Notes under the pieces: generated by a model
Told to the model about the DNA's origin: nothing
Database searches by the model: none
Seen by the model: only the letters and a program-made list of their open reading frames with translations
DNA from: Stylophora pistillata
Lineage: Eukaryota
Assembly (NCBI RefSeq): GCF_002571385.2
Contig: NW_019217860.1
Location: 638,856-702,855, forward strand
Length of the DNA: 64,000 nt
Direction: 5' to 3'
Position numbers and translations under genes: made by a program
Part shown: one piece after another, positions 7,301 to 62,239 of the stretch
Numbering within the stretch: the stretch's first letter is position 1
Layout: every line of letters begins with the position of its first letter

Positions 7301-10300
7301 CTGATTGGTCGAGAGGGTGTCGCAAATTTTATGGACCAACCAGAGATCTTTTGTCACGTGCTCTTTTCTTCGCTTGAAGCAAGCTGGACGTATTTACTTC
7401 GGTTAGTTACTCCTTCTGATTTATCTCTTTCTTTATCTCTCTGATTAGTCAATTTTTTTTTTACTTGTTTTTGTCGCTTAACCAAATTCAGTGGAAATAC
7501 TTTAATAGAAAAAGGTTTTTCAAATCTAATTTGCAACATGATTTATACTTCTGTTACGAATAGAAAAGCATTTCGGTCAAATAGAAAGCTTTTAAAACTC
7601 TCTTCTAATGTACCGATGGACTAACGAAAGTTGTCTGCAATGAAAAGCATACCAAAATGTGGCGATCTGATTGGTGCGAGACACATACTTTAATGCGGCG
7701 ATCTGATTGGTACGAGATACATACCCTAGTGTGGCGATCTGATTGGTTGGAGATACATTCCCTAATGTCGTGACATGATTGGTGCGAGATACACACCCTA
7801 ATGCGGCGATCTGATTGGTGCATGATACATACCCATGTGACAATCTGATTGGCGCTAGATACCTACTCTAATGCGGCGATCTGATTGGTGCGAGATACAC
7901 ACCCTAATGTGGCGATCTGATTGGTTCGAGATAGTTACCCTAAGGTGGTGACCTGATTGGTTCAAGATACACAACCTGATGCGGAAATCTGATTGGTGCG
8001 AAATACATACCCTAATGCGACGATCTGAGTGGTGCCAGATACATACCCTAATGCGGCGATCTGATCGGTGCAAGATACATACCCTGATGTGGGATCTGAT
8101 CGGTGCAAGATACATACCACTCGATACACTAACATAAAGTTATTTTTATTAAAAAAATAATAATTCCGAAAGAAGGAAAACTTACGTCTAGTTTTCTTCT
8201 CTTCTTTCCTCCTTGTGGCGAGTATTCTCTCAAGCCGTGAAATAAACTGGTCAAGTACATGATGATCAACTTTTTATCTGGCTTATCCACATCAATATCT
8301 TAAAAAAAAAAAAAGTAAGGACAAACATGAATCAAATAAGTTTTACTTAAAAACCAAACATTTATTAAGCTGGCCATAAGTTCGAAATTATTCCAAAGAC
8401 AGAGGTTACTCGCAGTTTTTTGCATATGAAACAATCAAAATAGATGTTGGCGTTTGCGTCCCTTGGTTTGGAGTTATCGAACTGTTGGAACTAAGGAATT
8501 ACAACTTATCTCAACAATTTTGATCTCAAAACGAGTTGCTTCGATGCATTCATTACAATATGAACGAGATTTGGGCTAGACAAAAAAAATATATTCACTG
8601 TTCTCTGTTTAAGAATGGATTAAAATGTGGCCTTCGACAAACACACTGAAATCAATTATCATAGGCGACAACACAGACAATTCACCACAGAAATTTCTTA
8701 GTTATCAAATCCTAAAGGTACGGAAAAGGAAAAACCGTGCTTTAATTCGCGAGTACCGACATTTTATTAACTTTCTTCATTCTCTGCAAACTAAAATAGG
8801 TGATTCAATTAAAAATGCTTCATCCATGACATTTTTTGAGGAAATATCACCATGTGAATTGAAAACAATTTGCGTTGTCACTAACTGATGAGAGTGTTTG
8901 CTTGTAAATTAGTCAGTGGAAAATGTCTTTAATATTTTTTTCTAGTTGGCAATTTTTTCAAATAAGAAATCAGAAAATTCTAGTACAGTAGTCTTTCTTT
9001 AACCTTGAGATGCATGGAGAGTTTTTCTGGTATACATTATTTTCTTCTTAATGGACGTTCCAATTTATTTATTTTGTTTTTGATCAAAATGTCGCCTAAT
9101 TTTTGTCCCTGATGCACTCTCACAGGTAATTAGGCCTTAAACAGGAAACCAGCATTTCAATAAAAGTTTGGAAAGATAGCCGCACCTTGAAATGAGGATG
9201 ACATACATAAGATCATAAAATTCGAGGTCAATAAATATTCAGTTGGCAAAAAACCAAATCAAATCGCACTGAAGAGACGTTTAGATTGCAGAAGAAGCTT
9301 AAAAGATCTCAAGACCTGCCTCTGACTGAGAAAAAGTAGGTTGCTTCGTATTTTTATTTTATTAGCAATTTTTGTTGTATCAAGTGAGAAAATCTCTCTA
9401 ATATACTTAAAATGTCTAGCTGAAAATCGAGATGTAAATCACAAGCTGACATATGCATGAGTACCGTGAAGGAAGAACTGTCGCACATTAAGTGTAGTTG
9501 TTCTCCAATTCCAAATCGAAATGTTCTGATAGTATTGCCCGCACACTTTTGACGAACATGTACACTTAAATGAAGCGTATAAAGTTTCAAAGTTAAAAAA
9601 AGAACCTGACAGCTAAGAAGGCTTAGAATGTGTTTCATGCGCTAGGACTTAATGATGCGTTTTACTTAAAAAGAATTAAATCGTAATCATGAACACAGAA
9701 ATCTTTAGAGGCGTTGCAGTTTATGAAAAGGATCGACTTTGGATGTGTTCCCTCAAAACGCGCAAATTAAGATAGCAAAATTTATAATAGAGTTTCTCAT
9801 TTAGAATCGATAGAATTGAAATTGGGTCAAAACAGAAAAAACAGGGATATTTATAAAAATGTTGAATTAACTCACCTGCTGGGTCAAGCAACTTTGGAAC
9901 TGAAAACTCGTCATTCGCTACGTTAAACGCGTGATCGAGGTTCGTTTTGTTGTCATTTTTTAAAAGGCTCTCAAAACGAAACAGTTCCGGCCTGGAAAAA
10001 GAGAAAAAGAAAGAAAAAGTTAGGGGAAAAGGGGTTTTTCTAAGAAACAGATAGATAAAGCATACTTAGAGTTGTCTCAAAAGATTGGATCGCTTTAATT
10101 AGTAAGGGGCTTTCTAGCACTACATGTAATCAGATACAATGTATATATGAAGTTCATATATTTTGAACTGCGGTATTAGATACGTATGATGCACGATCCT
10201 CGCAGTAGAGAGCGCTATTTATGCAATAGCGAAAATCAGACCTGAAAAAAATCAGGCCTGTACGGGATTCGAACCACTGACCTCTGCGATACTAGTGCAG

Positions 10301-13300
10301 CGCTCTACCAATTGAGCTAACAAGCCAACTGGGAGCAGGCCGTTGAGTTGATTCGTAAAAAACCCGTGACGATAAATCAGATACAATGTATATGTGAAGT
10401 TCATATATTTTGAACTGCAGTATTAGATACGTATAATGCACGATCCTCGTAGTAGAGAGCGCTATTTATGCAGTAGCGAAAATCAGACCTGAAAAAAATC
10501 AGGCCTGTACGGGATTCGAACCACTGACCTCTGCGATACTAGTGCAGCGCTCTACCAATTGAGCTAACAAGCCAACTGGGAGCAGGCCGTTGAGTTGATT
10601 CGTAAAAAACCCGTGACGATAAATCAGATACAATGTATATGTGAAGTTCATATATTTTGAACTGCAGTATTAGATACGTATAATGCACGATCCTCGTAGT
10701 AGAGAGCGCTATTTATGCAGTAGCGAAAATCAGACCTGAAAAAAATCAGGCCTGTACGGGATTCGAACCACTGACCTCTGCGATACTAGTGCAGCGCTCT
10801 ACCAATTGAGCTAACAAGCCAACTGGGAGCAGGCCGTTGAGTTGATTCGTAAAAAACCCGTGANGCTGCACTAGTATCGCAGAGGTCAGTGGTTCGAATC
10901 CCGTACAGGCCTGATTTTTTTCAGGTCTGATTTTCGCTACTGCATAAATAGCGCTCTCTACTACGAGGATCGTGCATTATACGTATCTAATACTGCAGTT
11001 CAAAATATATGAACTTCACATATACATTGTATCTGATTTATCATCACGGGTTTTTTACGAATCAACTCAACGGCCTGCTCCCAGTTGGCTTGTTAGCTCA
11101 ATTGGTAGAGCGCTGCACTAGTATCGCAGAGGTCAGTGGTTCGAATCCCGTACAGGCCTGATTTTTTTTAAGGTGTGATTTTCGCTATTGCATAACTAGC
11201 GCTCTCTACTGCGAGGATCGTGCATCATACGTAACTACATGTAATGGTAATAAAGAAATTTTGGTGGAAGACAGAACCAGGGGAAATCCTATCCTTAAGA
11301 TTAGCCTTTCCGCTATTCGATATCAATTTTCCCTTTTTTTTTTTTTTTTCAACTTCTCTTTGAGTATTTGGTAATAAAATAAGAAGAGAGAAAAACGCAG
11401 AGAAAGATAACACCATGTGGCGGGGTGATAGTACGCATTCCTAGTAAAGTAGTGCGGCGGGGTTAGGAGCCAAATACTATTCCCAGGCTTCGTGCGCCAT
11501 TTGAAATCAAGATGGCGGTCTCCATTAAAACCGCACAAAAGAAAATTGACTAAAACAAATTCTCAACGGGGCCATAGATATAAAAAATAACTGAAATAAA
11601 ATTACTTCATAGAAATGACACAGATTACTTACTTGTGAGAATGGATGATGGCGTTGAAAGCCAAACCGTCTCTCCAACTTGTTGTGAAGTCTTTCAATTT
11701 AACGGAATCCTCGTACCTTAAAGGAATTTTTAGAAATCCAAACTCATCAGACAAGTAAAGACGATACATAATGATATTCTACCTTAGAAAAATAGTAAAA
11801 ACTAACACCTAGATATCTGAACTATCAAAATAAGAAAAAAATTCAGAAAAGAATATAGTGTATACACTGTAACGAATCGAGTCTCAGTTGGCGATAATAT
11901 ATACCGCTACATTTTGGTCTCGTTGGTCACTTGGCGAGATTTTATTTGCTTTGACTGTATCCCTTTGACCTTGAACTCGGCCTTTGACGTTTCACCTTGG
12001 CTTATCAAATGCACATCATTTTAGGCCTCACCCTTCAAGTGATGTCTGACACCAAGAAAGCAGTTTCTTCTCGACTTGAAAATCTTTGACGCCGGTATCC
12101 CCAGCGTCATCACCAGTAATGACACCTTGCACCTGACAGAAATTGAGAAATATCAGAGGTCCCTAAATGTTAGTTTTGAAACGCTATTTATTTCCTTTGT
12201 ACCTTAGATTATTGCTTAAACACCGACTGTTTACGCTTAGTTAACGTTTATCTACGTCACGGTTTATTTTAGTCGATTACTGTAATTGGTGTGAAATTGT
12301 TACGCAATTTATGTCAGTCACTCGCTTCGGGTGTCTAAGAATTCCAAACTAGGTGTACATTTGTGACACCTTGCAAGTTACGGAGTTGCAGTTGGTACGA
12401 ACTAGTTTTTTCTTTTTCACGGGTTACCCTTCGAATAAAAGTCGAAGGGGAGAAACGAGAAACCGCAACTTACAGTAAGGATCCAAAAGACGAAGTCAGT
12501 ACGATAATAACTCAACTCTTCTGTGTCTGGTGGGTTTGGAAACTTTACAGAGTCCAGTAATTTATAAAGAATGAAAGACAAAATTTCACTCGCCTGGGAT
12601 TAAGAAAGACAGGTAAACCCAGGGTTACATAGTGTACCTGGAATCGTAGAATAATACTCCATATAAGCCCAAGAATAGTCGTGCTCTTTCCGTCGACGAT
12701 GTCGTAATTGCTGATCCCAACAAGCTTGACCTAAAAAATCATTTTCAGAAAAATGTGGTTATATTAAAAAAGTGCAGTCTTCCCAATGAAAACGAGTTTT
12801 GATTGTGCGATGATAAAAAAGGAAATCAATTTCACGTCGAAAGGTTTGCGCTTACACATACCCTGGTCTGCTTAAGAAAGCAAAAGTTGTGGGTATCACA
12901 CAAACGACCATTAATAAGCTAAAAGTACGGAATCATCACCACCAACCACAGTATAAAGACCAACATTTGAAAATATATTTAAGGGTAGAAAATGGCCAAG
13001 AAAAAAAAGCCTGAACAACACATTAAAAGATACAATGTCTGATGTCTTATTCAGTGCATTCATTACGAGCGTGGAAATTTATGCGTCGATCAATTCGAAA
13101 CTTCAACATCCCCTCCCTGGGCAACCCCTTTGGGATGGAAGAGGGTCAAATGTCCGTGGACTGCCTTGGATGGAATGTTGAAGCTTCGAACTGATCGGTG
13201 CATCAGTTGCAAAAATGCGTACTTACCCTGTTTTTTTCCAACACTTTAAGTGCTGTGGTCACATTAGTGAGTTTATGAACACGCATTCGGCCTTTCTCTC

Positions 13301-23430: not shown

Positions 23431-26400
23431 ATGGAGGATAAAGAACAAATGGTAGATGGAGACGATGATGCTATGGAATCAGAACTGGAGGGGAGTGAAA
23501 AGCCTGAGGGAGGGTGGGGTTGGGTGGTTTGTTGTGGTACCTTCAGCGTCAACTTTATAGTGTTCGGTATTCATAACTCATTTGGTGTGGTGTACGAGTA
23601 CCTGGTAGATGAACATCACATGGGGGAAGCTGAGACAGGTAAGGATGATAACCCAGTGGGTAAACCTGACTGAGAGTTCTTTACTGTAAAACAGTCGCAG
23701 ATTTTGACTTTTGACCTTGAGCCAAGCAGGCACGTAGCGTGGTCATTTTTTCAAGTACACACAGGTACATATGATCTAGAAACCTAAGTAAACTGAGCGA
23801 AAAATACTGCATTCTTTATTTCTTGTTTGAAATAGTTGTGTGAATACAAGCAAAGAACAAAGCGTCTTGCCCTTATTTTGAGCAAACTTGGCGCAAACAC
23901 AACATTTTTTTCAAATTTTTCTGGTCACTTCAAGTACGCACATGTGTATATATATATGCGTAGAGGACACTATGCACCTGCCAAGAAAGGGGGCAGGGGT
24001 TGTGTGTGTACACCTGCAGGCTTTCTTTTCTTTCTTTTGCAATTATTATTTCACCCAAAATAAGGGGGGTCTTGGCCCCCCCCCCCCAGGTGCCTCCCCT
24101 AGATCTGCCAATGTAAATTACACACTGAGTTTTACCCATGTTCATTTGAGTGCCTTAGTTAAATCAAAGATAAAAAAAGGAATGTTGCATAATTTGTAGT
24201 ACAGATTACAAAGACAACATTAGGGAGATCTCTAGTTTTTTTCCATGCATGTGGAGTTGCTTGAAATGAGTGATGCAGAATGAGTCAGTCCCTTATCATT
24301 GTCCAATTTCATCCTTAATTTCTACTTGTAATGTACATTGAAATGGCTCGTGTTGTGAATCATTAGCAGCATTAGACAACATTTTAGGGCACTTTTTTAT
24401 TAAGATATTTTCACTCACAAATATTACAACAAAGTATCTGTTCTTTCTTTCCTCATAGCTTGGGTTGGTGCAATGGCTGGTTCCCTTAACTTCTTGTGTG
24501 GTCCACTGACAAGTATTCTTTGTGATCGCTTTGGATTTCGTCGAGTAGCATTTGTTGGGGCCCTTCTATCTGTGACTGGACTTTTTCTTACGTCACTTGT
24601 GACTAGCTTGCATTACATGTACCTCACTTATGGACTTCTTTGGGGGGTAGGGTCCAGTCTTTCCTTTGTACCTTCCATTGTGATGTTAGGTGAATACTTT
24701 GATAAAAGACTGGCACTAGCCAATGGATTAGGTACAAGCGGGAGTGGAGTGGGTTCATTGGTAGCCTCACCTGCGATTAACTACTTACTGCGGGTCCTTG
24801 GATGGAGTAACTCTCTGCGCATACTCAGTGGGGTTGCAGCATTTCTTGTTGTGGCATGCTTCCTCTATAAACCGGTAAAAACAAGACGGCGTGAAAGAGC
24901 CGTGACAAAACAGTGCAGCCAGTTGTGTGACATTTCAATTTGGAGGAACCGGCCTTACGTAGCCTGGGTACTAACAGTAGCGTTATTCCAGTTCGGATAT
25001 CCAGTCCCTTTCGTCCATTTGGTAAGTCAGGAGACTTTCATACTCTGTTTGTGGTGTAGTGCCATGGGAATAATGAAAAGGATGTACTAGTAGTACTGAG
25101 GTCGCGTGAAGATTCGTTAGCCGTGTGCTCGTAACGTCGAGGAAATCATCGCTTTCACGCAGAAAAGAAAAACAGCAAAAATAAAGCGAAACATTACGAA
25201 AAAGTAGAAAATTCAGCAAAGTTTTATTTGGTTTTCTTCAGTTCTCTTTGAATCCTCCAGTCAGCCCAATGGATAGTGCGCTGGACTGTTGTGTAGGAGG
25301 TCGAGGGTTCGAGTCCCGGCCGGACCAACACTCAAGGTTTTAAAATAATTGAGAAGAATTTGCTACCTTTCTATAAATTCAAGAAATGGTTAGATATTCT
25401 AGTCTTCTCGGATAGGGACGAATAAATGGAGGTCCCTTCTCCTGCAGGGTTGGGGGCATTAGACGTTAATTTCCCACACACGAGATAACTGTGTGATGGA
25501 TATCCTCCCCTGGGGTGGAATGGGTGGGTTTCCTGGGCCCGCAGCAATTGGCGCAAGCTGTTGCGGTGTCCCTGCCTGTCGGCGAATCTAATAAATTAGA
25601 TTAAAACGTGACAAGACCTTTTAAAATGTATCTTGAAGTGACAAAAGCAAATTTAATGTGCAAGTTACATGAACAAAGCAAAATCAGTAGTAATGTGAAA
25701 AGAAAACCATTAAAAAACATTTTAAGTTTGTAGAACTTATTTATGGCTCATAATTTGTTTTAAAAAAAAAAGTCTGTGGAAGCGCAGTCTATTTAAGTAA
25801 GTTCGGCATTTGCTTGGAGGCTTGTGTTTATCAATATTTTGCTTTCAATTACAGCACTTTTTGAGGGAGCAGGGATGGCGCAGTGGTGAGAGCACTCGTC
25901 TCCTACCACTGTGGCCCTGGTTCGATTCCTGGACCTGGCGTGACATGTGGGTTGAGTTTGTATTTGGTTCTCGTCCTTGCTCCGAGGGTTTTTCTCCGGG
26001 TCCTCCGGTTTTCCTCCCTCCTCAGGGGACAAGAAGAGCCACCCAGTGGAATGTCCATTGCTAAATTATTATTTATTTATTTACTTATGCTAAAAGAGAA
26101 GCTTTCTTTAGTAATGTCATAAAGTTATGTTCATTTGTATCCCTCTCGTCAGGTGAAATACGCCGATGACCTTGGTATCCCGCCTTCCAAAGGAGCATGG
26201 CTGGTCGGATTCCTTTCCATCATGTCTACTGTGGGGCGTGTGATTTTCGGAAAGATCTGTGAACTGCGATGGGTCAACAAGGTTTATGTTTACCAGTTTT
26301 CAGTGTTTACCATAGGACTTAGCACGATGATCTGTCCAATCACAGAGGGGTATGCGGGTCTCGTGACCTACTCTCTTGTGTTTGGTTTTTTCGATGGATG

Positions 26401-29918: not shown

Positions 29919-32900
29919 ATGAAAAGTGAAAAACAAGCAGATGGTGGACTTAGGGGGAAATCGACAAGTCGAGACGGCGGCTACGGATGGGTAGTTTGCT
30001 GTGGGACTTTCATTGTAAATTTTGTGGTATTCGGAATTCACAACTCATTTGGTGTTGTGTATGTTAACCTACTCGATGATCTACAACTTGGTGAGATGCA
30101 AACAGGTGAGCAAACAGTCCGTACTGGTACGTAGTTAGTGATTTCAGACTATACTTTGATCTATACGGTTACTCAAGTGTCAAAGTAATTGTGCTTGTAC
30201 TAGACAAAATCACTGTAAACACAAGGGATTTTAAAACTAACTTATTAAATATGTTCAATTCCAGTCTTGAACAGAGAAGTAGCTCTGCTTCATCGTTAAT
30301 GGAATAGATTTAAGTGCACGCGTTAGGATGAAACACGCATTAACCTTAATTGAAACGATCTAACTGTTGTTCACTTGCTAATTTTAGAAGAATACAAAAG
30401 GATTAATCGAACCTGAGAGAGTACATCGAAAATGATACATGTCGCAGTGCTATCTTTCAAAGAGAACTAACTGTATCTCTAGCTTCGCTTGAAGTTGATT
30501 AATTCTCTATTAAAACTGACTAGTTGTAAATGACAATAAGCTAAGTGAGTGAAATTGATATCTTGACTGACACGATACATATGAATTGATGAATTGAAAC
30601 ATTGAACTATTTCCCTTCGAGCTGAAGTTTCATTTTCGTTTTTCACTCAATAATTTCTCGCCAGGAATTTACACCTGAAAAAGGTGGGTGTCCGCACATG
30701 AATCGATTATTATGGTCATCACGAGTTTGGACTAAACCTTTGAAAAATAAACAAATGCTGGTCTCCTGATGAAAGCACATCAATTTCTTTCCCCGTGATT
30801 TTTTCTGACTTGAATCAAAACAACAAACATCTTCTTGCCTGAAATTTTCAATACTTACTTCTATATAACGGGCAAGTGATTACTTCCAAATTTCTATTCC
30901 GTCAGAAATAAGGTTGCTAATTTGCTGTTTATCACGTGTGGCCGACCTGTCAACTATAGCACAGCAATGGAGATGTCAAGTACAGATTAATTATGGAAGA
31001 CTTCTGATAAAGGGTCCCAATGGGGTGATGGTTTTTACGGCTAACGGTTAAAATTTTGGCCAATCGACGACTAACGGCTAATATCTTTCCGTGGCAGTCA
31101 CCAAAAAAAATTTTAGTAGTTATTTTTTTAACCACTAGCGGTTACAATTTTTGAACTGTTACGCCTAATGGCTAAATTTTTTTGGCCATGTTACTGCTAT
31201 CGATTAACAGAGACCTTCCAGATGCTAAGTCTAAGCACGCCCTTGATTAGTTTAGCATCGTAACATCAGGGATGCACAGCAAGTTCTGCCTGGCATGGTT
31301 AATGTCTGCAGAAGTTTTAAAGTCACAGGTTATCGCCTAAATTTTGGTTTACAATGACTAATGGGACAACTGTAGAATTTGTGAACAGGGTTTTATAGAG
31401 AGCGCATTGGCGTGTTTCAGAATCTACAAGATAGGCGTCATCGACCAAGCGTGAGGTCCACAAAACAAGTGTTAACAAAAACAATAACAACGGCAGCTTG
31501 ACAGAGCATGCTTACTCTTCTAAAGGTTTAACCAAAAGAACATAATGTTGTATTATTTTCCCTTGGACTTACCTAAAATCCCGAAAAAGTAAAGATCGAT
31601 ATGCCCAAAAATCGAGAAACTCGTCCCTTCTTTTAATGAAAAATATAGTTTCTTGCTTGTAAAGCAATGCAAATAGATAATTTCCTTTGCGCTAACAAAC
31701 AAATCACCGTCCAAAAGATTTCGAAGCATGGGGAGTAAAGCTCACTTCGTCTTGAAGAAGAAGGGATTATCATCATGCTTTTTAGTGCCGTTTGTACTCG
31801 GAGGGAGTGGAAGTTGTAGAATAGGCGGTTAAACTTTTCATTCTTAGGGGTTTCAAATAATATCAAAAAATAAGTAGAACAGTTAAGAGAGGCGACAAAA
31901 ACATCGACTAAGGGACTTTCGTTTGATTCTTGATTCTATCTTGCCAGGATACATTGTACACGCCGAATCATTGTCTGTTTTTAAGAGTAGACTTAAAATT
32001 TATTTGAATATTTATTGAATATTTATTGAATCTGTAGCCATTATATTTTATCTTTTGTATGTTTTTAGTCAGGGAAAATATTTTTATACAGGGCTAACCT
32101 CACGATTTTCCCTTATGAGGATGTATTTTTAATATTTGCGTTGTAGCTTCCTGAATAAATGTTATGTAATGTTATGTTATGTTATGTTACACCATATTCT
32201 CGGATCTAAAAAATGAAATGTACAAGAAATGGAAACCTGACAGTGATGAGGAGACTTAAATATTCAAATCTTGTATGAGAAAGGATGATGATGATACCCT
32301 TGGGTGGGCGCCTTGCATGGGTCTTTGTGTCCCGTGCGCGCCTTTCTCTTTTAGCCTGGCTTTTATTAATTTCGCATAGTTATTCTACTTATTCCTTCCT
32401 ATCTTGTAAATAGTTTTATTCCATTTATTGCCCAGTAAAGATTTAAAGAATTTTCAGGATAAGAAGGTGAAGATTTTACAGGCAAGGATACATAGCGTTC
32501 GTATTGAAATGCTTCTGAAGTGTGAGACAGTGGATGATGGGAAGCGTAAGGTGGAATTTGATGAAATCTGCTACTGTGGCCAGACTAACTCATGCACTTA
32601 CACCGATATTGGGTATTGAAGGGTTCTCTTTGGCTCATTGGAAAGCATCCGAGCGCGAAATCCGAATGTCTGGGATCGATTCAGCGTGGGGGAATTCAGA
32701 TATTTTCCACTGCTCCACACTTGTGACAAAAATAATAAAATCTTTATACACTGAGATCATTGTTTTATTTCTTTTCACAGCGTCGATCGGTGCCATGGCT
32801 ATGGGGTTGAACTTCTTCTTTGGTCCTATATCAAGTGCACTGTGTGATCGTTTTGGATGTCGCGTTGTGTCCTTCGCTGGCGCGTTGCTGTCCGTATCAG

Positions 32901-34603
32901 GGTTGTTCCTAACTTCGTTCATACAAGAAGTTCATAAAATGTATGTGACCTACGGACTTGTATGGGGAGTGGGTTCTAGTTTCTCCTTCGTGTCGTCCAT
33001 CGTTGTCCTTGGTGAGTACTTTAATAAAAGACTGGCGCTCGCCAATGGGATTGCAACATCCGGGAGTGGCGTAGGCTCTCTTGTTGCCGGGCCGGTCATA
33101 AATTACCTACTGGGATCTGTTGGATGGAAAAACTCCATGCGCATTTTGAGTGCGTTTGCTGGACTGTTGTGGTTTGCGGCTATGATCTTTAAGCCAAAGA
33201 AAAATCTTCAGTCTACTGGGCAAAGAAGAGAACGTACCAAGTTATTTGATACATCAATATGGAAGAATAAAGCGTATGTTTTGTGGGTCACTACTGTAGC
33301 CGTGTTTCAATTTGGTTATCTGATTCCATTTATTCACCTGGTAAGTTGTATCATTATTTTTTTATACTCTTTTTTCCTCTCGTTCCTGACTGGTTAGTGA
33401 CAAATGCATAAATAGGTTGTGGACTGCCATTCACGATTTCTTTCTTGCAATCTCGCTAAAAGGGTTAGTATTTAAAGAAAAGTTACCAATGTTGATCTAC
33501 AGAATATACTTCGAAGAACATTAAACTTGGTCTTTGTGTCATGATAATTTAATAAAATAATAAATTCAAAGAAAACACGAGCGTTTTCTAGACAATTTTT
33601 TTTATTAGCCACCGTTAGGTAGAGAATTTCTAAAGCAGACACAACTCGCGTTGACCCCTGAAGAATTAAGGGCTAACACTTGAAACGCAAGCTTTAGAAA
33701 CTCTTTACGGTGGCAAATTCACATTATCAACTCAGTTGATTAAACCAAAATAATTTGGAAATTCCCTCCCCCGACGCAGCACCACAGTTTTGTCAGAAAC
33801 TTACCGCCTTATTCGTCTTGTTATTCTCTGCAGGTGAAGTATGCCGAAGATTTAGGAGTACCAAAATCTAAAGGCGCATGGCTAATTGGCTTTCTGTCAA
33901 TTACCTCAACACTTGGACGAGTGGTATTCGGCAAAATTTCCGACCTGAAATTTGTCAACAGGCTCTACATGTACCAATTTTCGATATTTTCCATTGGATT
34001 GACCACCCTCTTGTGCCCTCTGGCCAAAAACTATGCAGGACTTGTGAGTTATACTTTGATATTCGGATTTTTTGACGGATGTTTTGTTGGCCAAGTTGCA
34101 GTGATTACAGCTGATGTGGTCGGACACGATAAACTTTCTCAAGCAGTGGGAAACATGTTTGGAACTCTGGCGATACCAATGAGTCTTGGACCTCCGCTCG
34201 CAGGTAATCAGGTTTATGTAAATTTTTAATTAAATGTCGAGTGAAAACGGTCGACTAACCTAAGGTTTCAACTTTGTTTTTAGGTTGGCTGCATGAAGCA
34301 TTCGGCACCTATGATAAAGCATTTTACATTGCCGGTTCTGTGGCGATATTTTCTTCTCTCTTGATTTTTGGTGTAAACTATATGATTCGAAAGCAGTTTA
34401 CAGAAAGGGAAATTGAGGAGCAGTTGGGATTAAAAAGCGACACTTCGCTGAGTGTTTCTGAAGCTGAAACAGCTTCTGACTCTGCTTACAAAGATACAGA
34501 ATCAAAGCCGATGCTGGAAGAGGAAGAGTACGTGGCCGTCAATAAATTTTGCAAGCTGCACTGTGCGTTAAGAACAAGCAAGGCACTTCTTGTGGTCGAC
34601 TCT
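29919..34603 (+). CDS. SLC16 monocarboxylate transporter family member (MCT8/MCT10-like), copy 2; stop codon lost in N gap
   Basis: Exons 29919-30105, 32781-33340, 33834-34203, 34284->34603; same intron positions and phases as copy 1 (exon 3 is 370 nt in both); RDGGYGWVV, YFNKRLALANGIATSGSGVG, GPPLAGWLHEAFGTY. Confidence 0.92.
31950..32189 (+). mobile_element. Probable LINE 3' UTR remnant with (TGTTA)n tail
   Basis: AATAAA followed directly by five or six TGTTA-like repeats at 32160-32189; left boundary approximate. Confidence 0.45.
33655..33815 (+). mobile_element. Decayed copy of hammerhead-bearing Penelope-type non-autonomous repeat (others ~38995-39200, 42210-42357, ~43590-43670)
   Basis: agggctaacacttgaaacgcaagctt...tttacggtggcaaattcacattatcaactcagttgat...cccccgacgcagcaccacagttt homologous to 49260-49495. 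Confidence 0.7.
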
Positions 34604-36014: not shown

Positions 36015-36089
36015 TGTTGGCTGCTTTCGATCTCCCAATACGTTTTGTGCACAAATCTCTAGATAGTTATCACCAACATTATTGTTATT

Positions 36090-37031
36090 CGTATGATGCA
36101 CGATCCTTCGCAGTAGATAGCGCTATTTATGCAATAGCGAAAATCAGACCTGAAAAAAATCAGGCCTGTACGGGATTCGAACCACTGACCTCTGCGATAC
36201 TAGTGCAGCGCTCTACCAATTGAGCTAACAAGCCAACTGGGAGCAGGCCGTTAAGTTGATTCGTAATAAACCCGTGATGATAAATCAGATACAATGAATA
36301 TATGAAGTTCATATATTTTGAACTGCGGTATTAAATACGTATGATGCACGATCCTTCGCAGTAGATAGCGCTATTTATGCAATAGCGAAAATCAGACCTG
36401 AAAAAAATCAGGCCTGTACGGGATTCGAACCACTGACCTCTGCGATACTAGTGCAGCGCTCTACCAATTGAGCTAACAAGCCAACTGGGAGCAGGCCGTT
36501 AAGTTGATTCGTAATAAACCCGTGATGATAAATCAGATACAATGAATATATGAAGTTTATTACGAATCAACTTAACGGCCTGCTCCCAGTTGGCTTGTTA
36601 GCTCAATTGGTAGAGCGCTGCACTAGTATCGCAGAGGTCAGTGGTTCGAATCCCGTACAGGCCTGATTTTGTTCAGGTCTGATTTTCGCTATTGCATAAA
36701 TAGCGCTATCTACTGCGAAGGATCGTGCATCATACGTATTTAATACCGCAGTTCAAAATATATGAACTTCATATATTCATTGTATCTGATTTATCATCAC
36801 GGGTTTATTACGAATCAACTTAACGGCCTGCTCCCAGTTGGCTTGTTAGCTCAATTGGTAGAGCGCTGCACTAGTATCGCAGAGGTCAGTGGTTCGAATC
36901 CCGTACAGGCCTGATTTTTTTCAAGTCTGATTTTCGCTATTGCATAAATAGCGCTATCTACTGCGAAGGATCGTGCATCATACGTATTTAATACCGCAGT
37001 TCAAAATATATGAACTTCATATATTCATTGT
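36090..37031. mobile_element. Second tandem + inverted array of the tRNA-like-containing unit (248 bp) with 12-bp TSD
   Basis: Units start 36090, 36338; inversion junction at 36555-36557 (GTT microhomology, no N); ATTATTGTTATT at 36078-36089 and 37032-37043. Confidence 0.88.
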
Positions 37032-38146
37032 ATTATTGTTATTATTTTTATTAACATCATTATTTTCATCATTATTTTTTGCACGTTGCAAAAATCGTGA
37101 AAGGGTTACGAAGCGGGTCGTACGCACGTGACAAGTCTTGCGTGAGAAGCCCGGTGGAACTTTGTCATAGCACCAAACCGTTACGGCAGGTGGCCAGATT
37201 CAGGAAAAAGAAAAACTAAAATTACAGCTGTCATATCAAACCCTGCATGTGTCAGTGGCTGTCTTTTGTCTGATCAACGCAAGTGTAATATTGCTAAGTC
37301 AATGTGAAGGAACTAAGGAAGCTTTTAATAAATCGACTCAGGAAGGTAAACAAATGAAATTAAGAGGTCCAACAGCAAATGAAACTGCGAATTGGAAATG
37401 CTTCCGGCAAAGAAAATTGATCTTATGTCCGAAAATCAGCGAATGATAGGCCGCTCAGAATTTGGTGTATTGATGATACACAGTTGAAGTGTTAACGACG
37501 CAAATTGTCCACGAACTGTTGGAGAAAACGATATAGGTAACAAATTCGTGCACAGAGGAAATTGTGTACCACCTTCCTTAGTAGGAAATACAACAGAAAA
37601 AAAAAAATAAACATAGAAGCGAAGACGAAAGTTTATGTAAATCCTTTTTCTGATGAAATTGGTTTTCAGTACATTTTTTGATTAATTCGTGTTTATTTAA
37701 AAACTTGCTTGACAACGAATTTTGTTGACACATTTGCATTTCTTAACCTTAGGCGTTTATAGGTTTTTAACAGGCGGGTTAACGCACTGTGATTGTAACT
37801 TTACGTTGTCTATCGTGGTAGAAAGGGGAAAAGCATGTCGTTTGTCGTTCACATGTGACTGTTCGCACGAGTTTTTTTGCTTGACACCTACATAGGGAAA
37901 ATTTTCGTAGAATATTTACTCAGTGTCAACACAATCGTACAAACGCTGACGATAACCTGAGCTGGTGTGGTCAGGGGCCTTGTAAAGCAAGACTTCGTTA
38001 TCAGTTTCTTTTAAGTAAGACTACTTGTGGTTTGAAAGATTCTACAAATCGCCAAACTGGGTTGTTCGTCGTCGAACGCAGCAAAACCAGCGGCTGACCG
38101 CAACGCACAAACACGTGATGACGAAAACGACAACAACCAAGCCGCC

Positions 38147-41611: not shown

Positions 41612-44600
41612 TAACTTTATTAATGTGTCTACAAAGATTTAGCATTGCTGCTAATTAGGGACACTGCAGTTACAGTAGATCAAAACTATATACGGGATGA
41701 ATCAAGATAAAAGCTTTTTACAAAAGAAATGAATGTTAAAAATATATGTATAAGATATTGCAGAATATCAGATCATGAGCAAAGATGTCCAGAAATGTTC
41801 CAAAAATTTGGGTAGATGTGTCAGTTATTTTCAAACATACCCTGAAGAGTGTCACAAATTTATGTTGTCTCCAGTGCTTTCTCTCCTCCACAATTGGATA
41901 ATTTAAAACCATCCACCAGGACCTTCCTTTTCTCTTTTTGATTCAAGTTTATTAAATTTCACCTTGTATTTTACAAAATGCAGTCAGTTAGGGCTGACTG
42001 ATGGCTTGAGTTTTCTGCTAGGCTTAAGAAACTCAGGTCATGAATAAAGCCTGAGTTGACCAGAGATTTACAATCTTTATACTTTTTTTTGTTGCAGCTA
42101 TGACTGGTATCAAAATGAAAAAATAATAACAATATCAGTGTTTACAAGAAAAAAGGTTTGTTATGAAATATCGTTAATATTTGAATATGACTATAATTTT
42201 TTTTAATGAAGGGGTAAGCTTCTACCTAAAAGAAACTGTGGTGCTGCATTGGTGGGGGTTACAAGGTAATTTGGTTTTATCAACTAAGTTGCTAATGTTA
42301 ATTGGCAACCGTAAAGAGTTCAAAAGCTGACGTTACGAGCGTTATCCCTTCATCAGAGTGATTTTTGTTTTACTTTGTTCCAAATTGTTCTTGATGATTG
42401 CAGTAAAATTGATGGTATTTTGCAGTGGAGTCACACCTGTTTTAAACGCGACAGAGGGATATATTCTCAAACACTTAATTTCTGTGTGGGCTGTGAATTT
42501 AAAAAGCAAGATATGAAGTTCTTGCATGGGAAGTTTGGAGAGCACAGAGAGTTGCTCTTGGCTGCCTCTTTTGTGCCCTCCAGACTTCATACATGCCTTT
42601 TTTTTCTCTAATCTCTGTGAATTACCCAGCGTACCGATGTATGGAAAAATCAACAACTGCTTAGTGAAATAAATTTTTGAATACCACAATTTTTATCCGA
42701 TGTGGACCTCAATAACTTTGACAATTCACATGTACCTGTATCTTATAGGATGTACAAGTTGAAGATGTCATATTAGAACTGAAGGGAGGAAAAGAGTTTG
42801 ATGCAATATTCCTTTTAGGAGAAAAAAGTTTTCGAATTCATTTAGGTTAGTTTATTGTTCATTTTCATGTGAATTCCTAACATTTGTTTCTTTATCTTAA
42901 TTCCCTTCTTAAAATTAATTTTACTCCATTTTTTTTTCCTCCTTTAACTCTCCACTCGAGCTGCAACATATTTCCTTGTAAGTTAGTTACAAGAATTTGG
43001 TTTCAGATCGAGATAAAAACTTCTACCTGATAAGTTTGAGGATTCTCATCACCTGTTTGCTGGATAATGTATGGATATTATAGATGTGTATAGAGGTTAT
43101 ATGTTTTAATCAGTGGTGGAAGTTAAAGAGTTAAGGAAAAACTAATTGATATGTATCTCATCTCTTCTTGAAGCGTTCAGCAATCTCATATCTCATCAAC
43201 AAGGTATGTAGTTTATCACTGTCTTATAACATTTCTCATGTATTTAACAATTATTCGCCGAAGGCGAGGTGAATATCGTTGAATAATCCCTGAGACGAAG
43301 GCGAGGGGATTATTTGACAATATTCACCAAACCTGAGGCGAATAATTGCTTTTAATTAGTATAATTTCAGAGCTGACCAACAGAGAAATTTCTAAAATCA
43401 TAACATTAATTAAAAATTTTTAGTAACACTTATTAACATTTTATTTTAACATTTTATTTTAACATTTTATGTAAACCGCGTCGAGCGGTTTATATAGCGT
43501 CATAGAAGGAACCGCTCGACCAATCAGATTGCTGGAAACTCTTTGCTCAGCTTTGAAATTATACTATTGCTTATTATATCGCAACCAAAGCCTGATACTC
43601 AAAACATCAGATTTAGAATTTCTTTACAACGGCCAGTTCACATTATCAAGTGGATTTAGGAAACCAGATACTCTACTAATCTGGAGTCTAAATTTACCTG
43701 TAACAAATAATCTTGTGCATGCTGAAATATTTACATACCATCCTGAGAAAACTTTAAACAACCACATACATGTTCACACGTCTACCGATACCATAGTAAC
43801 TGTACAATTTAGAAAACTGGTGGCACGCAAGGTCTATTGACTGATTTTCCTTTTATACTGTTACATGATTTTTTATAGTACGTTTGTCCGGGGAAAGTGG
43901 CAAAATTGATATTCTTTTGACCAAAGAAGTGGCCGGGGTGCAATGGACTGAGTTAGGACAAGGTTTGCCGGGAAATAACTCTTTCAAGTTGCACAAGGAG
44001 AGAGGTATGGAAAACAGTGAAAAAACACTTACATCTGCATGTATTTATAGTACGCCATTTTACCGTATTAGGCGACGAAACACGGAAAATATGCCTTCAA
44101 ACAAACAACAGTACAAAAGTACGGACGGAATGCTGAAGCTACAAAATAGCCACGCTGAATGATTCAACCTTTTGTTTTTTTTTTCTTTTTGAAGGCATGA
44201 CTTTTTCAGCAACAAACTTCGAAGCACATTGGATTTTTCTGTTGGCCATAAAGCAGACTTGAAGTCACTGTGTTTGAGTTACTTTTGTCGTTTGATCTGT
44301 TCAATGCTCAGATATGGTCGTAGGAAGTTTTTCGAAAACTTAAAGCGACATGCTAGTAAACGAAATAATACGGGAATGACAATTAAATATCCAACTAACC
44401 TCTTTGTCTCTTCAGTTGCACTTGGACTGACCATAAAATACGTACAATTGTTTGCATAGTGTGGGATAAGGATGTAGTGATCGCGTAACTCAGTAGAAAG
44501 CTATTTAGGATTATTTTCTGATTACTTTTGTATTTTCCCTCCCACTACGGGGCTCGGAAAAATACCAAGTAACTCGCACGACATCTACATGTGTTTTGAA

Positions 44601-48303: not shown

Positions 48304-49259
48304 TAAATACTTCGTGTAGGTTGACAGAATTGACTAATTCACACCAGGCAATACGACACAGATCTAATCCACCCGCCACTCAAGTCATAACGTGCAATAT
48401 GCACCTTGAATATAACACTTATTCATATTTGAATTACTTTGACGCGAAAATGCACATATACTACTGCTCCGGGCGCTATGGTTCTTAAATAAAGACTGAT
48501 GGCCTTCAAGCGCCCACAACGTTTTCTCGTCCGAAGGGGATGCCTGAAACGTTTGGGCCAGTGGCAATGATCGTGCTCTGATAGCAGGAATATGGCGCAA
48601 ACACGAGAATGGCATGGTGCATTAGGTAACGACGAACGATAAAAGATGGGATAAAAGCCGCAATCCCGTCGTCCCCTTTAAGCTTTACGTGCCACTCAAT
48701 CATCTTAATTCTCTATCGCACCCTTAGAGCTGAGAAGTAAGCCAAAGCTGTGGACCAACATTAAACGTTTTGGAATTGCTGTAGCAAAACATTCTCTTTT
48801 TGAAAGACTGGTGATCAGTATATTATAATGGAACATTCATTACAAACCCCCACGTTACATTTGTAAGTACTATTAAATAGGAATTCCTTTAAGTCCTGGA
48901 GTTTCGAAACCTCGTGAGCAATACATGCGTTCCCAGTTGAATAAAAGCTTGATCATTTGTGATGGTTTGTCTACCCAGTCCCCTCCTTATCGGGCGGATA
49001 CCGCGGATCAAACCCTCTCTGCCTTTCCAGACATTCCAATCATTCATGGTATGTTTCTAAGATTATCGATAACTTTCCGACATTCGACTTTGGCCAGTAG
49101 GGTCATTCGTCGTAGCCCAGTATGGCAGTGCGTCAACATTGCATCCAAACAAGAGCTCGCTTGTGCTTCGATATTATGGCCCGGCGTATCTTGTCCTTCG
49201 CACTAGTTTGGGTGTCAATCTGTCTGGGATATTTTCATACAGCTCTTCTTTATTGGATA

Positions 49260-49495
49260 AAGGCTGATAGTTTCTAAAGAAACTGTTTGGGACTGCGTCG
49301 GTGGGGGTAACGAAATAATTTGGTTATATCGACAAAGTCGAAGTGGTAAATTGGCCACCGTAACGATTACAAAAGCTGACGTTTCGATTCGTCGCGATTC
49401 GCTCCGACGAAGGGCTAACGCTCGAAACGTCAGCTTTTGTAATCGTTACGGTGGCCAATTTACCACTTCAACTTTGTTGATATATCCAAATTACC
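49260..49495. mobile_element. Head-to-head inverted Penelope-type non-autonomous insert with 13-bp TSD
   Basis: ~72-bp inverted arms 49316-49387 / 49422-49493; TCTTTATTGGATA at 49247-49259 and 49496-49508. Confidence 0.82.
49401..49434 (+). ncRNA. Minimal type I hammerhead ribozyme-like motif (core variant)
   Basis: GCT-CCGACGA-A-GGGC TAAC GCTC-GAAA-CGTC-AGC: helix I GCT/AGC, helix II hairpin, palindromic helix III ACGT; CUGA changed to CCGA here, while the copy at 42325-42358 (-) keeps CTGATGA but has GTAA. Confidence 0.65.
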
Positions 49496-51138
49496 TCTTT
49501 ATTGGATATTGCACGGCGCAAACCATTCGTCGCGTTTGATTTCGAGCCGTATAGTCGGTGTCCATAATGATGAATCATAAAGAATTACTGATTCCACAAT
49601 GGACATGAAAAAAAACCTGTTTGACCACACGAAACCTAAATTATTGAAGAAAATTGTAAATATGTTGACATACCGTTGGCGAATTATTCTGTTAATAGAT
49701 AAGCTCTGTGGAAACTTAACCAGCTATTGATAAAATAAATCTTTCGGTCGAAGGCCAAAAGTACAGAGTCTTTTATGGTACACTTTGAGATATCGAGGAT
49801 TGGGAAAGTCATGCACCAACCCAGAGTAACCTCTTTCACATTTGCAGTCGGTCTTTGTGATGTCGCACAAGGGAGACGAGTAACCTTGAAGGATGTGAAT
49901 TAAAAATACTCCCTGGCTTGGAGTTTGGTCTCAGATGTTCACAAGGCAAAGCAACATCACGGATTGAAGACCGTTCACTGAGTCTGATTAATTAACATTC
50001 AACCATGCCTCTACCCTTTACCCAAAGTATATCCGTGCTTCACCAAACTATGACGGCCGTTAGTTGGAGTCTGATTGTAAGGAGAGAGGGGTAGGAAGGG
50101 GATATTTGGTATTAGCTTCCTGATATCTGTCTACGTGGGAAACAATGACTTAATTTCCTTAATTGGGAAATTATGCAATTTGAGGGACACCAACATTGAT
50201 TCCGCCATGTATTCATGCAGAGAAAGACAAAGGTCAATAAACAAAGAAAAAGGGTTAAAGAAAAGTAACTTTTTATCATAAGAAAAGCCCAAAAACGGCC
50301 CTGTAAAACTTGTCAAAGTTAAAATTTTACGTATATCTACTAGAAAATTGAATTTTTTCGTACATCAAGAAAAAAAGCGTAATATATAATTCTGTTAACT
50401 TTGACCTTGTTATATTGCTTGAAATCTGCTACCTTTGCCAACGCGAGTTACAAATGAGAGCAGTAACTCTACCATGTGTTATGTCGAACAAAGTTTTTGT
50501 TTTAAAAAAATGAAAGGTACTGAATATGATTATCGTAGGTCCACAACAACCTTTATCTGAACAGTAATGCGGCTGCTTCAGATTTTTGGCACAGGCTTGT
50601 CACTTCCAAATAAAAATGTCCTAAATGCTAAATCAGCAAGAGTTCAACCCAAAAATCACGACTTAAATTGGACTTAGTCTGAGACTCGCCTTTGTGTACA
50701 TCGAGTAACCGCTATAAGCAGTCAGCAGAGAAAAAAAACATAAATTCCGTCCGTTCGCTGCCCAGTCTATATATCTAGGCAATTCGCTCAGCAAAATGAT
50801 TGAAACTGAATCAAAAAGTGATCAGATGACTGAAAAACGATAACGAGAAAGTACATGTAATGAGTCCATGAAATATTGACAGGAAATTATCTCAAATCGC
50901 TTTGTTCTTAGTAACGGAATGATTACATCGTCATCCTACAATATGCGAACAGTTTGAGGAAAGCTAGTCCGACTTGACACGGAATAAAGCAATCCCATAG
51001 AACCTTGCAAACGTCTTCTACCGATAGCTAAAAGAATTGTGTAATCATTAGGAAGTACGAAGTAGTAAAAGGAACGTAACGCAGTTCTATCTTCTCTTAA
51101 TTTGTCGTTTTGTTGCACGTGAGCTGAAACAAAGGTTC

Positions 51139-53808: not shown

Positions 53809-54234
53809 GATTAACGCCGGGCTACAATTGAATAAATTGAAAACCCTTATAAGAAACCTTATGATTACCCATCTCCATGACAACTTGCACTATATGGACA
53901 CGCGTAATTATCAATCAGCCAAGCAGAGACAAGCACTAGCTTCCGCTTGCTTGAGTGACGGACGTTTGATAATCGTGCATATCAAACAACTTCTACGACT
54001 GGTTCGTCAAAGATTGTCAGACTAAAGAACAAAAATGAACCTGTCAATCACGTGAGGTTATCTGGATATCTCATAGTCAATGAATTTTAATAAAAAATAA
54101 TGAAATAAATAAATTTATCAAACCGGCAATGCCTTGTCCTTACTGTGACGTTATCTCAGATTTCATTAAAAACCTGAGGTCAAGGAAGACAACAAACTGT
54201 GAACTGAAGGACTTGTGCACTTATAGACAACTTT

Positions 54235-58930: not shown

Positions 58931-59443
58931 GGTATCCAGCCCCTAAAAAAATCCGTTTCTCTAATGTTGATTTACAGCTAATTCGAGGAGGGTTGTCGGA
59001 AAAATTATCACGTTCACGTGACAACCCGAAAGGCATTGTGGGTAGTTTTAAGCTCTCTGTCCTTACTTGACCTCAACATTTCAAAGGAATCTGAGAAAAT
59101 TGTCACTATGAGAACAAGGCATCGCGGGTTGGATTAATTAATTAATTAATTAACTAATTTCATTTTACATTAATTGATTACCAGATACCTTGATTACCTC
59201 CCAAAATTAGTGCGTTCAGTTTTTCTCCTTTTTCCTTACAACCTTTCTCGAAACAGCTGTGGATCTTTGTAGAGTTGTTCGATTATCAAATGTGCTTTTT
59301 TCAGGCAGGCGAAAGCGAGTGCTTGCCTCCTCTTAGCTGATTATCTATTATTCGTGTCCATATTTTGCGACTTGGCGTAGAGATGTCTAATCATAGTGTC
59401 CCTTAAGAGAGCTTTATTTTATTCACTCAGCCCGTCATTAATC

Positions 59444-61964: not shown

Positions 61965-62239
61965 GAACTTTTTTTCAAGTCCGGTGCAGTAAGACGAGAA
62001 CACGGGAGAGAGAAATGTACCACTTTTTCTAATATTAAATGTAACTTCTGATGAGAAAATGACTTTTGTTCCGGTTATCAGTCGACTTTTGCAAAGTTTG
62101 ATAGTCATTGCTAAAGAACTGATTTGTATACCTGTAGTAGTTGCATCGCAATCCAGAGCAAAACAATTTAAAATTATTTCATAATAGCATAAACGTAACT
62201 TTCAAAGTAGTATTTTGGAAATACGCGAATGAATTTCTT

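What the first reader, a model, noticed from the sequence alone, without database searches (positions are those of the whole stretch)
36078..37043. Independent second insertion of the same element reveals preferred termini and a microhomology junction
Seen: a different 12-bp TSD (ATTATTGTTATT), a 248-bp sub-variant unit (gatccttcgc, gatagcg, taataaac) that is homogeneous within the array, and a gap-free inversion junction with 3-nt GTT microhomology. Both inserts have one end at ~CGTATGATGCA and the other at ~(CAGAT)ACAATG, in swapped left/right order. Inference: each array was copied repeatedly from one template molecule with two preferred RNA 3' ends (rolling-circle or template-jumping RT, twin priming). 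It therefore did not arise by local tandem amplification.
Basis: partly seen in the sequence, partly recalled or inferred. Interest (0 to 1): 0.72.

Follow-up and report, generated by a model that had tools for sequence, protein, structure and literature searches.

The report
tRNA-bearing passenger of Penelope retrotransposons
This is one of thousands of copies of a short coral repeat carrying a tRNA look-alike, whose cleanly inserted back-to-back copies pair one fixed end with the other just as the same genome's Penelope retrotransposons do, so it is likely pasted in by a Penelope-type enzyme that copies one continuous RNA from two start sites at once.

Summary
Confirmed: the 12-bp TSD, two inverted arms of a 248-bp tRNA-bearing unit, the GTT junction and the swapped ends. 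The family has 5,907 motif hits in this coral genome. Outer ends fall at two sites about 50 nt apart. Of 74 inverted inserts with a TSD, 68 carry one of each site and none the same site twice; all 10 same-site pairs lack a TSD. Two true Penelope-like (PLE) families of this genome obey the same rule (15 of 15). The ends are therefore likely paired internal start sites of a PLE enzyme on a continuous RNA (circle or long tandem transcript), not two RNA 3' ends or L1-type twin priming. The homogeneity argument fails: this unit is the commonest young variant, and inner units of long arrays look assembler-filled. No hammerhead, no partner PLE (120 loci tested) and no empty allele (8 runs) were found. 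The scan has reported this family before in this genome and similar elements in other genomes; no paper on it was found. Verdict: a ribozyme-free, retrozyme-like PLE passenger.

The parts
36078..36089 (+). left copy of the 12-bp target site duplication
   Evidence: junction covered by contigs of X1, X15, X17
36090..36557 (-). left arm, 468 nt, 1.89 units; outer end at start site I (u145), inner end u174
   Evidence: 0 differences from the unit
36555..36557 (.). inversion junction with 3-nt microhomology (GTT), no gap
36555..37033 (+). right arm, 479 nt, 1.93 units; inner end u212, outer end at start site II (u192-194; last 2 bases shared with the TSD)
   Evidence: 2 differences (36671, 36924)
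37032..37043 (+). right copy of the target site duplication
   Evidence: junction covered by contigs of X1, X2, X4, X7, X8, X10
36162..36234 (-). tRNA-Thr(AGT)-like head, followed in sense by a T7 run inside a hairpin
   Evidence: ARAGORN; Rfam RF00005 48.9 bits
36410..36482 (-). tRNA-like head
36592..36664 (+). tRNA-like head (u1-u73); A and B boxes kept, T-stem with two mismatches, self-complementary hexamer ACTAGT at the anticodon
36840..36912 (+). tRNA-like head
10119..11245 (.). first insert of the same family: TSD 10119-10130 and 11234-11245, left arm from site II, right arm to site I, N at the junction (10864)
49247..49508 (.). in-window positive control: inverted pair of pseudo-LTR fragments of a hammerhead-bearing Penelope-like family, 13-bp TSD, one end of each class

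Best explanation
The insert is one copy of an abundant non-coding, tRNA-bearing coral repeat whose TSD-flanked inverted insertions pair one site-I end with one site-II end, and it was likely written by a borrowed Penelope-like (PLE) RT-endonuclease that primes at both sites of one continuous multi-unit RNA. Shown: TSD mode 12 in a symmetric AT-rich site (A two bases outside the TSD on both strands); both arms point their RNA-sense 3' ends outward; ends at u142-148 and u191-198, 46-54 nt apart; scattered inner ends joined by short microhomology or filler; arms that run past one unit; arms of one insert that share variants; the same end rule in two coding PLE families of this genome. Inferred: a dimeric enzyme nicks both strands 12 nt apart leaving 3' overhangs; one RT starts at site I from one nick and the other at site II from the other; both copy back round the unit until they stall; host end-joining fuses the two cDNAs head to head. 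The template is either a 248-nt circle or a read-through transcript of a long tandem array (about even odds). The tRNA-like head likely acts as a Pol III promoter or processing signal rather than as a tRNA.
For: End pairing: 35 of 37 one-of-each, 0 same, 2 with a short end; independent set 31 of 33, 0 same; pooled 68 mixed, 0 same, 6 other of 74 with TSD versus 9 mixed, 10 same, 15 other of 34 without (Fisher p 2.3e-8). TSD control 0 of 1102. Empty sites: of 41 inserts tested, 5 lay in multi-copy host repeats and paralogs held one TSD copy in all 5. Target symmetry: A at -2 in 29 of 37, mirrored T in 22 of 37; 48 of 66 strands in the new set. Positive control: PLE family B 8 of 8 and family E 7 of 7 TSD-bearing inverted inserts have one end of each class; a family-B ORF has RVT_1 and GIY-YIG matches. 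Continuous template: 13 of 40 census arms exceed one unit; 65 of 74 inserts are simple two-arm; only 10 of 105 junctions recur, 2 within their own locus and most others in sets chosen by inner end. Same source for both arms: mean percentile rank 0.12, p 9e-6, n 26. Literature: a purified PLE cleaves and extends both strands, starts at two internal sites bounding the 'tail' and is predicted to be a dimer (PMC11167929); the tail is often at only one end (PMC8557442).
Against: No partner found: no PLE terminal repeat resembles the unit among 70 GIY-YIG loci and 50 RT loci, a sample of about 1,400-1,600 candidates. The two PLE families measurable here have other fingerprints (B: TSD mode 11, A at -2 in 7 of 16; E: mode 13, 3 of 14). 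PMC11167929 saw no difference in start site between strands in vitro, so the strict pairing is not shown biochemically. The 50-nt spacing exceeds the published 30-40-nt tail, though families E and B here have about 59 and 92. 34 of 108 inverted inserts have no TSD, and most single-orientation inserts have none (5 of 36; 4 of 30). A T7 run after the tRNA-like head should stop Pol III before both start sites, so the source of the RNA is unexplained. No empty allele of this site in 8 runs. The first insert shows outer units of one type and inner units of another in both arms, which a single circle cannot give.
Confidence: 0.8

Rival explanations
1. One reading: a LINE-type RT uses linear RNAs with two alternative 3' ends, makes arrays by jumping between monomers, and inverts by L1-type twin priming.
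For: tRNA-derived head as in SINEs; 5' truncation, TSDs, and junction microhomology of 2 or more bases in 14 of 26 joins with overlap 0-4 against 16% expected (p 1e-5).
Against: 0 of 74 same-site pairs; both outer ends fixed; no A-rich or simple-repeat tail; no pile-up of inner ends at the tRNA start (5 of 94); 33 of 55 site-I arms cross that point.
Confidence: 0.08
2. A DNA-level process (rolling-circle Helitron/Helentron-type or fold-back element, or a repair-mediated insertion of extrachromosomal DNA circles) builds the inverted arrays without RNA.
For: Tandem units and inverted arms; no coding partner found.
Against: 12-bp TSDs, one fixed and one scattered end per arm, and an architecture identical to RT-encoding PLEs of the same genome. 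Helitrons make no TSD (own knowledge).
Confidence: 0.05
3. Insertion is PLE-type but short; arrays of several units arise afterwards by unequal crossing-over, or in the assembler, so no circular or long template is needed beyond about two units.
For: Deviations drop about 6-10-fold beyond 100 nt from arm ends; L051 and L064 have one variant at both anchored ends and another in the middle; 37 of 73 single-orientation arrays abut N. This is compatible with the best explanation for the ends and differs only on array length.
Against: Arms of 1.1-1.7 units with TSDs are common (13 of 40) and many repeat less than 100 nt, so short reads can resolve them; junctions of parent inserts are seldom recopied, so templates are not transcripts of ordinary short inserts.
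Confidence: 0.3

Closest known systems
Endonuclease-bearing Penelope-like elements (Penelope/Poseidon, Neptune, Hydra, Naiad); PMC11167929, PMC3846280, PMC8557442
   Same: Tandem and head-to-head inverted arms, a 'tail' extension at one outer end, two start sites, TSDs near 8-13 bp, AT-rich targets.
   Different: No ORF, no hammerhead, no detected pseudo-LTR homology, an internal tRNA-like module, a 248-nt repeating unit.
Animal non-LTR retrozymes (PMC7229834, PMC7761336; bioRxiv 10.64898/2026.07.22.740005)
   Same: Non-coding 150-450-bp tandem units with TSDs, present in corals, proposed to be PLE passengers copied from circles.
   Different: Defined by a type I hammerhead, which is absent here; circular RNA not shown here; the preprint's text has no occurrence of 'tRNA' or 'tail'.
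Non-autonomous Chlamys PLEs such as MRC1 (PMC8557442)
   Same: Non-autonomous, multicopy head-to-tail insertions, from a clade that mostly lacks hammerheads.
   Different: They generally share 3' sequence with an autonomous family; none was found here; no tRNA module is described in the passages read.
SMalpha of Schistosoma (SINE-like repeat with a hammerhead; PMC8490949 passages; its tRNA-type promoter is recalled, not read)
   Same: SINE-like unit that also occurs in tandem.
   Different: Carries a hammerhead; paired PLE-type ends are not described in the passages read.
tRNA-derived SINEs and L1 twin priming (own knowledge)
   Same: tRNA-derived A/B boxes, TSDs, inversions with microhomology.
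   Different: The tRNA part is internal to a permuted unit, there is no tail repeat, and both outer ends are fixed.

Membership tests
Autonomous PLE | ORF with RT and GIY-YIG | tested here: not met
   no ORF of 150 aa or more overlaps the insert; the unit is 248 bp
PLE-dependent non-autonomous element | inverted/tandem arms with a tail at one end (two fixed ends) | tested here: met
   68 mixed, 0 same of 74; same rule in PLE families B and E, 15 of 15
PLE-dependent non-autonomous element | TSD of about 8-14 bp in AT-rich DNA | tested here: met
   12 bp in 21 of 37 and 17 of 33; 74% AT; empty paralogs 5 of 5
PLE-dependent non-autonomous element | shared terminal sequence or endonuclease fingerprint with an autonomous PLE | tested here: inconclusive
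   none among 120 loci; B and E fingerprints differ; Naiad-type elements not sampled; one head-to-head PLE/element join, L433, cannot be checked for a TSD
PLE-dependent non-autonomous element | mobilisation by PLE protein in trans | not testable with these tools
   needs an in vitro or cell assay
Animal non-LTR retrozyme | 150-450-bp non-coding tandem units | tested here: met
   245-253-bp units in tandem
Animal non-LTR retrozyme | type I hammerhead in each unit | tested here: not met
   no ribozyme in Rfam to E 10; no core motif on either strand of 5 subfamily units, whereas a like pattern found cores in 4 of 8 PLE references
Animal non-LTR retrozyme | abundant circular RNA | not testable with these tools
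   only assembled contigs were served, no raw reads
tRNA-derived SINE | tRNA-derived head with A and B boxes | tested here: met
tRNA-derived SINE | monomer starting at the tRNA 5' end and ending in a LINE-derived or simple-repeat tail | tested here: not met
   5' ends at u244-u6 in 5 of 94; outer ends internal to the unit
L1-type twin-priming inversion | one fixed 3' end and one variable internal priming site (recalled definition) | tested here: not met
   both outer ends fixed
Functional tRNA gene cluster | intact cloverleaf | tested here: not met
   two T-stem mismatches and an A-C pair closing the anticodon stem

The most novel reading that the evidence does not exclude
A ribozyme-free class of circular-RNA retroposon: tandem transcripts are cut and closed into 248-nt circles by host tRNA-processing enzymes acting on the tRNA look-alike, possibly as a kissing dimer through its self-complementary anticodon hexamer (ACTAGT in young, ACCGGT in older subfamilies), and a dimeric Penelope-type RT rolls round the circle from two fixed sites, each used exactly once per clean integration.
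Probability: 0.25. Interest if true: 0.75.

Novelty: new variant of a known kind. Interest (0 to 1): 0.45.

Why it matters
How Penelope-like elements complete integration is still open. Thousands of short, measurable copies give a sharp rule: a clean TSD goes with one start at each site, and same-site pairs never have one. The rule also holds for two coding PLE families here, so it predicts a two-headed RT on one RNA and can be tested in the existing in vitro system. Family-specific TSD length and target motif offer a way to match passengers to enzymes. The element also shows that a PLE-type passenger need not carry a hammerhead, and it may account for part of the 20,000-plus 'tRNA' repeats that RepeatMasker lists in two coral genomes (PMC11370458 Table 2; link not tested). 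This particular copy is ordinary within its family.

Tried and rejected
1) RT stop at modified A58 of the tRNA-like head: suggested by 7 of 94 inner ends at u56-60, but genome-wide true 5' ends were 22 (u59), 22 (u57), 6 (u56) against controls 13 (u48) and 26 (u29); rejected. The excess at u51-78 (30 of 94) is unexplained; the U-run and hairpins are candidates. 2) Partner PLE by homology: none; by fingerprint: B and E do not match, 8 other references gave too few inverted copies. 3) Mixed PLE/element inserts: 4 of 128 free 5' ends abut PLE sequence; L433 lacks its other end (N gap), L065, L327 and L034 have no TSD; inconclusive. 4) Distant TSDs for TSD-less arms: mostly none; hits were assembly duplicates or gapped inserts. 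5) Empty allele of this site: not seen in 8 runs, at most 7 samples, 6 studies; contigs drop rare variants, so this is no proof of fixation. 6) Turn-by-turn mirrored variants as a test of linear multimer versus circle: clear only in the window's first insert, which has an N at its junction; L064 fits assembly fill; undecided. 7) First end-refinement over-extended into AT-rich flanks and was replaced. 8) RNAalifold on 24 copies recovered no 3' helices; named-structure counts gave 12 of 43 pairs with double changes, 21 of 500 shuffles as high, clearest in helix u96-114; relatedness limits this. 9) Bacterial promoter scan not applicable. 10) Search for a named coral-specific repeat returned unrelated papers. 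11) One further batch of 20 PLE RT loci was not obtained, so the partner search stays a sample.

Full report
Numbering. u1 is the first base of the tRNA-like head in tRNA sense; the unit is 248 nt. The window lies in a 398-Mb genome of 5,513 contigs; runs that hold it include ones labelled coral metagenome.

1. Observation. The insert is as described: TSD at 36078-36089 and 37032-37043, unique in the window; a left arm of 468 nt in antisense from u145 and a right arm of 479 nt in sense ending at u194; a gap-free GTT overlap at 36555-36557; 0 and 2 differences from the unit. The first insert (10119-11245) has the end classes swapped. Each unit holds a tRNA-Thr(AGT)-like head (Rfam 48.9 bits, no ribozyme family to E 10) followed by a T7 run. 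Contigs of 8 runs, at most 7 samples and 6 studies, each hold at least one filled outer junction; none shows an empty allele; the inner junction was not among the pieces listed.

2. The family. A 17-20-base motif of the unit has 5,907 exact hits, control 0. The first 100 hits fall in about 63 inserts, which extrapolates to roughly 3,500 inserts. Three samples were analysed: 58 loci picked by best score plus the two window inserts, the position-ordered census on three contigs, and 96 of 100 loci picked by inner-end patterns, 4 duplicates dropped. Subfamilies range from 97% to 88% identity, with older relatives at 70-80%.

3. Ends. Among inverted inserts with N-free flanks, 13 of 24 and 24 of 34 had a TSD; mismatched flanks gave 0 of 1102. 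With ends defined by the TSD, 35 of 37 had one end at u142-148 and one at u191-198, 46-54 nt apart; 2 had a short second end; none had the same class twice. The third sample gave 31 of 33 and again none. Pooled with wider windows: with TSD 68 mixed, 0 same, 6 other; without TSD 9 mixed, 10 same, 15 other; p 2.3e-8. Same-class pairs may be aberrant events, recombinants of two inserts or misjoins. TSD length is 12 in 21 of 37 and 17 of 33; the target is 74% AT and symmetric, with A at -2 in 29 of 37 and the mirrored T in 22 of 37. Of 41 inserts tested, 5 lay in multi-copy host repeats, and the paralogs held one copy of the TSD in all 5; neither window insert had a paralog among the loci held. 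Inner ends are scattered. Of 48 junctions, 19 have filler, 26 overlap by 0-4 bases and 3 by 12-24; 14 of the 26 overlap by 2 or more, against 16% expected.

4. Positive control. GIY-YIG searches found young coding PLEs. Family B ends in two classes about 92 nt apart and family E about 59 nt apart; 8 of 8 and 7 of 7 TSD-bearing inverted inserts have one of each, including one in this window at 49247-49508. Their TSD modes are 11 and 13 and they lack the strong A at -2 (7 of 16, 3 of 14), so neither is the likely partner. No PLE terminal repeat resembles the unit among 70 GIY-YIG and 50 RT loci. One locus (L433) joins a truncated PLE head to head with a unit arm, but its far end lies in a gap.

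5. Template. Arms of one insert are more alike than arms of different inserts (mean rank 0.12, p 9e-6, n 26, using only sequence within 150 nt of an arm end); about 10 of 26 share a variant seen in no other insert of that set, some being subfamily markers or alignment quirks. 13 of 40 census arms exceed one unit, and 5' ends are not enriched at the tRNA start. 65 of 74 inserts are simple two-arm and junctions seldom recur (10 of 105), so ordinary short inserts are not the usual template; a circle or a long master array is. Nothing here separates these two. The first insert, with one type in the outer unit of both arms and another inside, favours a linear multimer or an assembly artefact.

6. 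Homogeneity. This unit has 89 further perfect matches at 37 other places among 40 candidates scored, so its uniformity says nothing about one molecule. In 40 long arms of the best-score set, non-majority alleles are 114 of 7,555 within 100 nt of an arm end and 0.14-0.28% further in; 6 census arms show a noisier version. The best-score set was chosen for perfect units, which adds bias. L051 and L064 have one variant at both anchored ends and another between. Assembler fill, edge effects of later homogenisation or template switching could each explain this.

7. Structure. The T-stem pairs in older subfamilies and is broken in the young one while the B box is kept, which suits a promoter role. 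Helix u96-114 shows double changes. Site I lies in the loop of helix u121-161 and site II about 10 nt after hairpin u166-186. The anticodon hexamer is self-complementary in both age groups: by my count of the first 100 of 156 listed hits, 82 have CCGG and 18 the single-change CCAG. This is one evolutionary event and only compatible with a kissing-loop idea taken from an earlier scan note.

8. Mechanism. Most likely (0.8) a PLE-type RT-endonuclease acting in trans nicks both strands 12 nt apart, primes one cDNA at site I and one at site II of a continuous RNA, and the two cDNAs are end-joined. The end classes, TSDs, symmetry and shared variants are shown; the enzyme, its dimeric action and the RNA form are inferred.

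9. Literature. PMC11167929 (parts 1-2 of 4 of the text): two internal start sites bound the tail, both strands are extended, a dimer is predicted, no strand difference in start site. PMC3846280 (passages): inverted pseudo-LTRs, optional tail, 8-10-bp TSDs, action in trans. PMC8557442 (passages): tail often at one end, Naiads lack hammerheads and occur in Acropora, MRC1 forms head-to-tail arrays, short-read assemblies handle such inserts badly. PMC7229834 and PMC7761336 (passages) and bioRxiv 10.64898/2026.07.22.740005 (abstract and passages): retrozymes as PLE passengers. PMC11370458 (passages) and PMC8490949 (passages). No supplements were read; those of PMC8557442 list consensus sequences that may bear on the partner. 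Searches listed no paper on a tRNA-bearing, ribozyme-free PLE passenger; subscription journals, Repbase and Dfam were not searchable. L1 twin priming and Helitron features are recalled.

10. Earlier scan notes. My PLE reading was stated before any note was seen. Searches then showed three notes on this family in this genome and three on similar elements in other genomes. They agree and are not independent support.

Verdict. Real feature, PLE-type passenger, new variant of a known kind; interest 0.45.

Noticed in passing
window 49247-49508 (and 42229-42354): Inverted pseudo-LTR fragments of a hammerhead-bearing Penelope-like family with a 13-bp TSD; the family is very abundant in the loci fetched.
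   Followed up: yes
window 32519-34600 and 24404-25090: Two paralogous MFS_1 (monocarboxylate-transporter-like) genes; the insert lies about 1.5 kb downstream of the second, and a poly(A) library holds a flank-insert contig (X15). A read-through transcript would fold into a hairpin of over 400 bp.
   Followed up: partly
window 51139-53889 and 59381-62000: 916-aa TPR + CHAT open frame with a 21-bp coding repeat at its start, and an inverted, about 78% identical paralog.
   Followed up: no
window 2082-3667: A 515-bp and a 64-bp near-perfect direct duplication around an N gap, probably an assembly artefact.
   Followed up: no
L433:3170-4517: 5'-truncated PLE joined head to head, through templated filler, to a unit arm ending at site II; far end in a gap.
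   Followed up: partly
L407:2150-2400; L270:1163; L143: Other, more distant tRNA-like repeat families, one in an inverted arrangement next to a PLE frame; their anticodon loops also contain CTAG.
   Followed up: no
L037, L061, L062, L252, L260, L266, L268, L287, L290, L305: Inverted pairs with the same end class on both sides; none has a TSD.
   Followed up: partly
window 13479-13552: A tRNA-like call with an unresolved anticodon, not part of the arrays.
   Followed up: no
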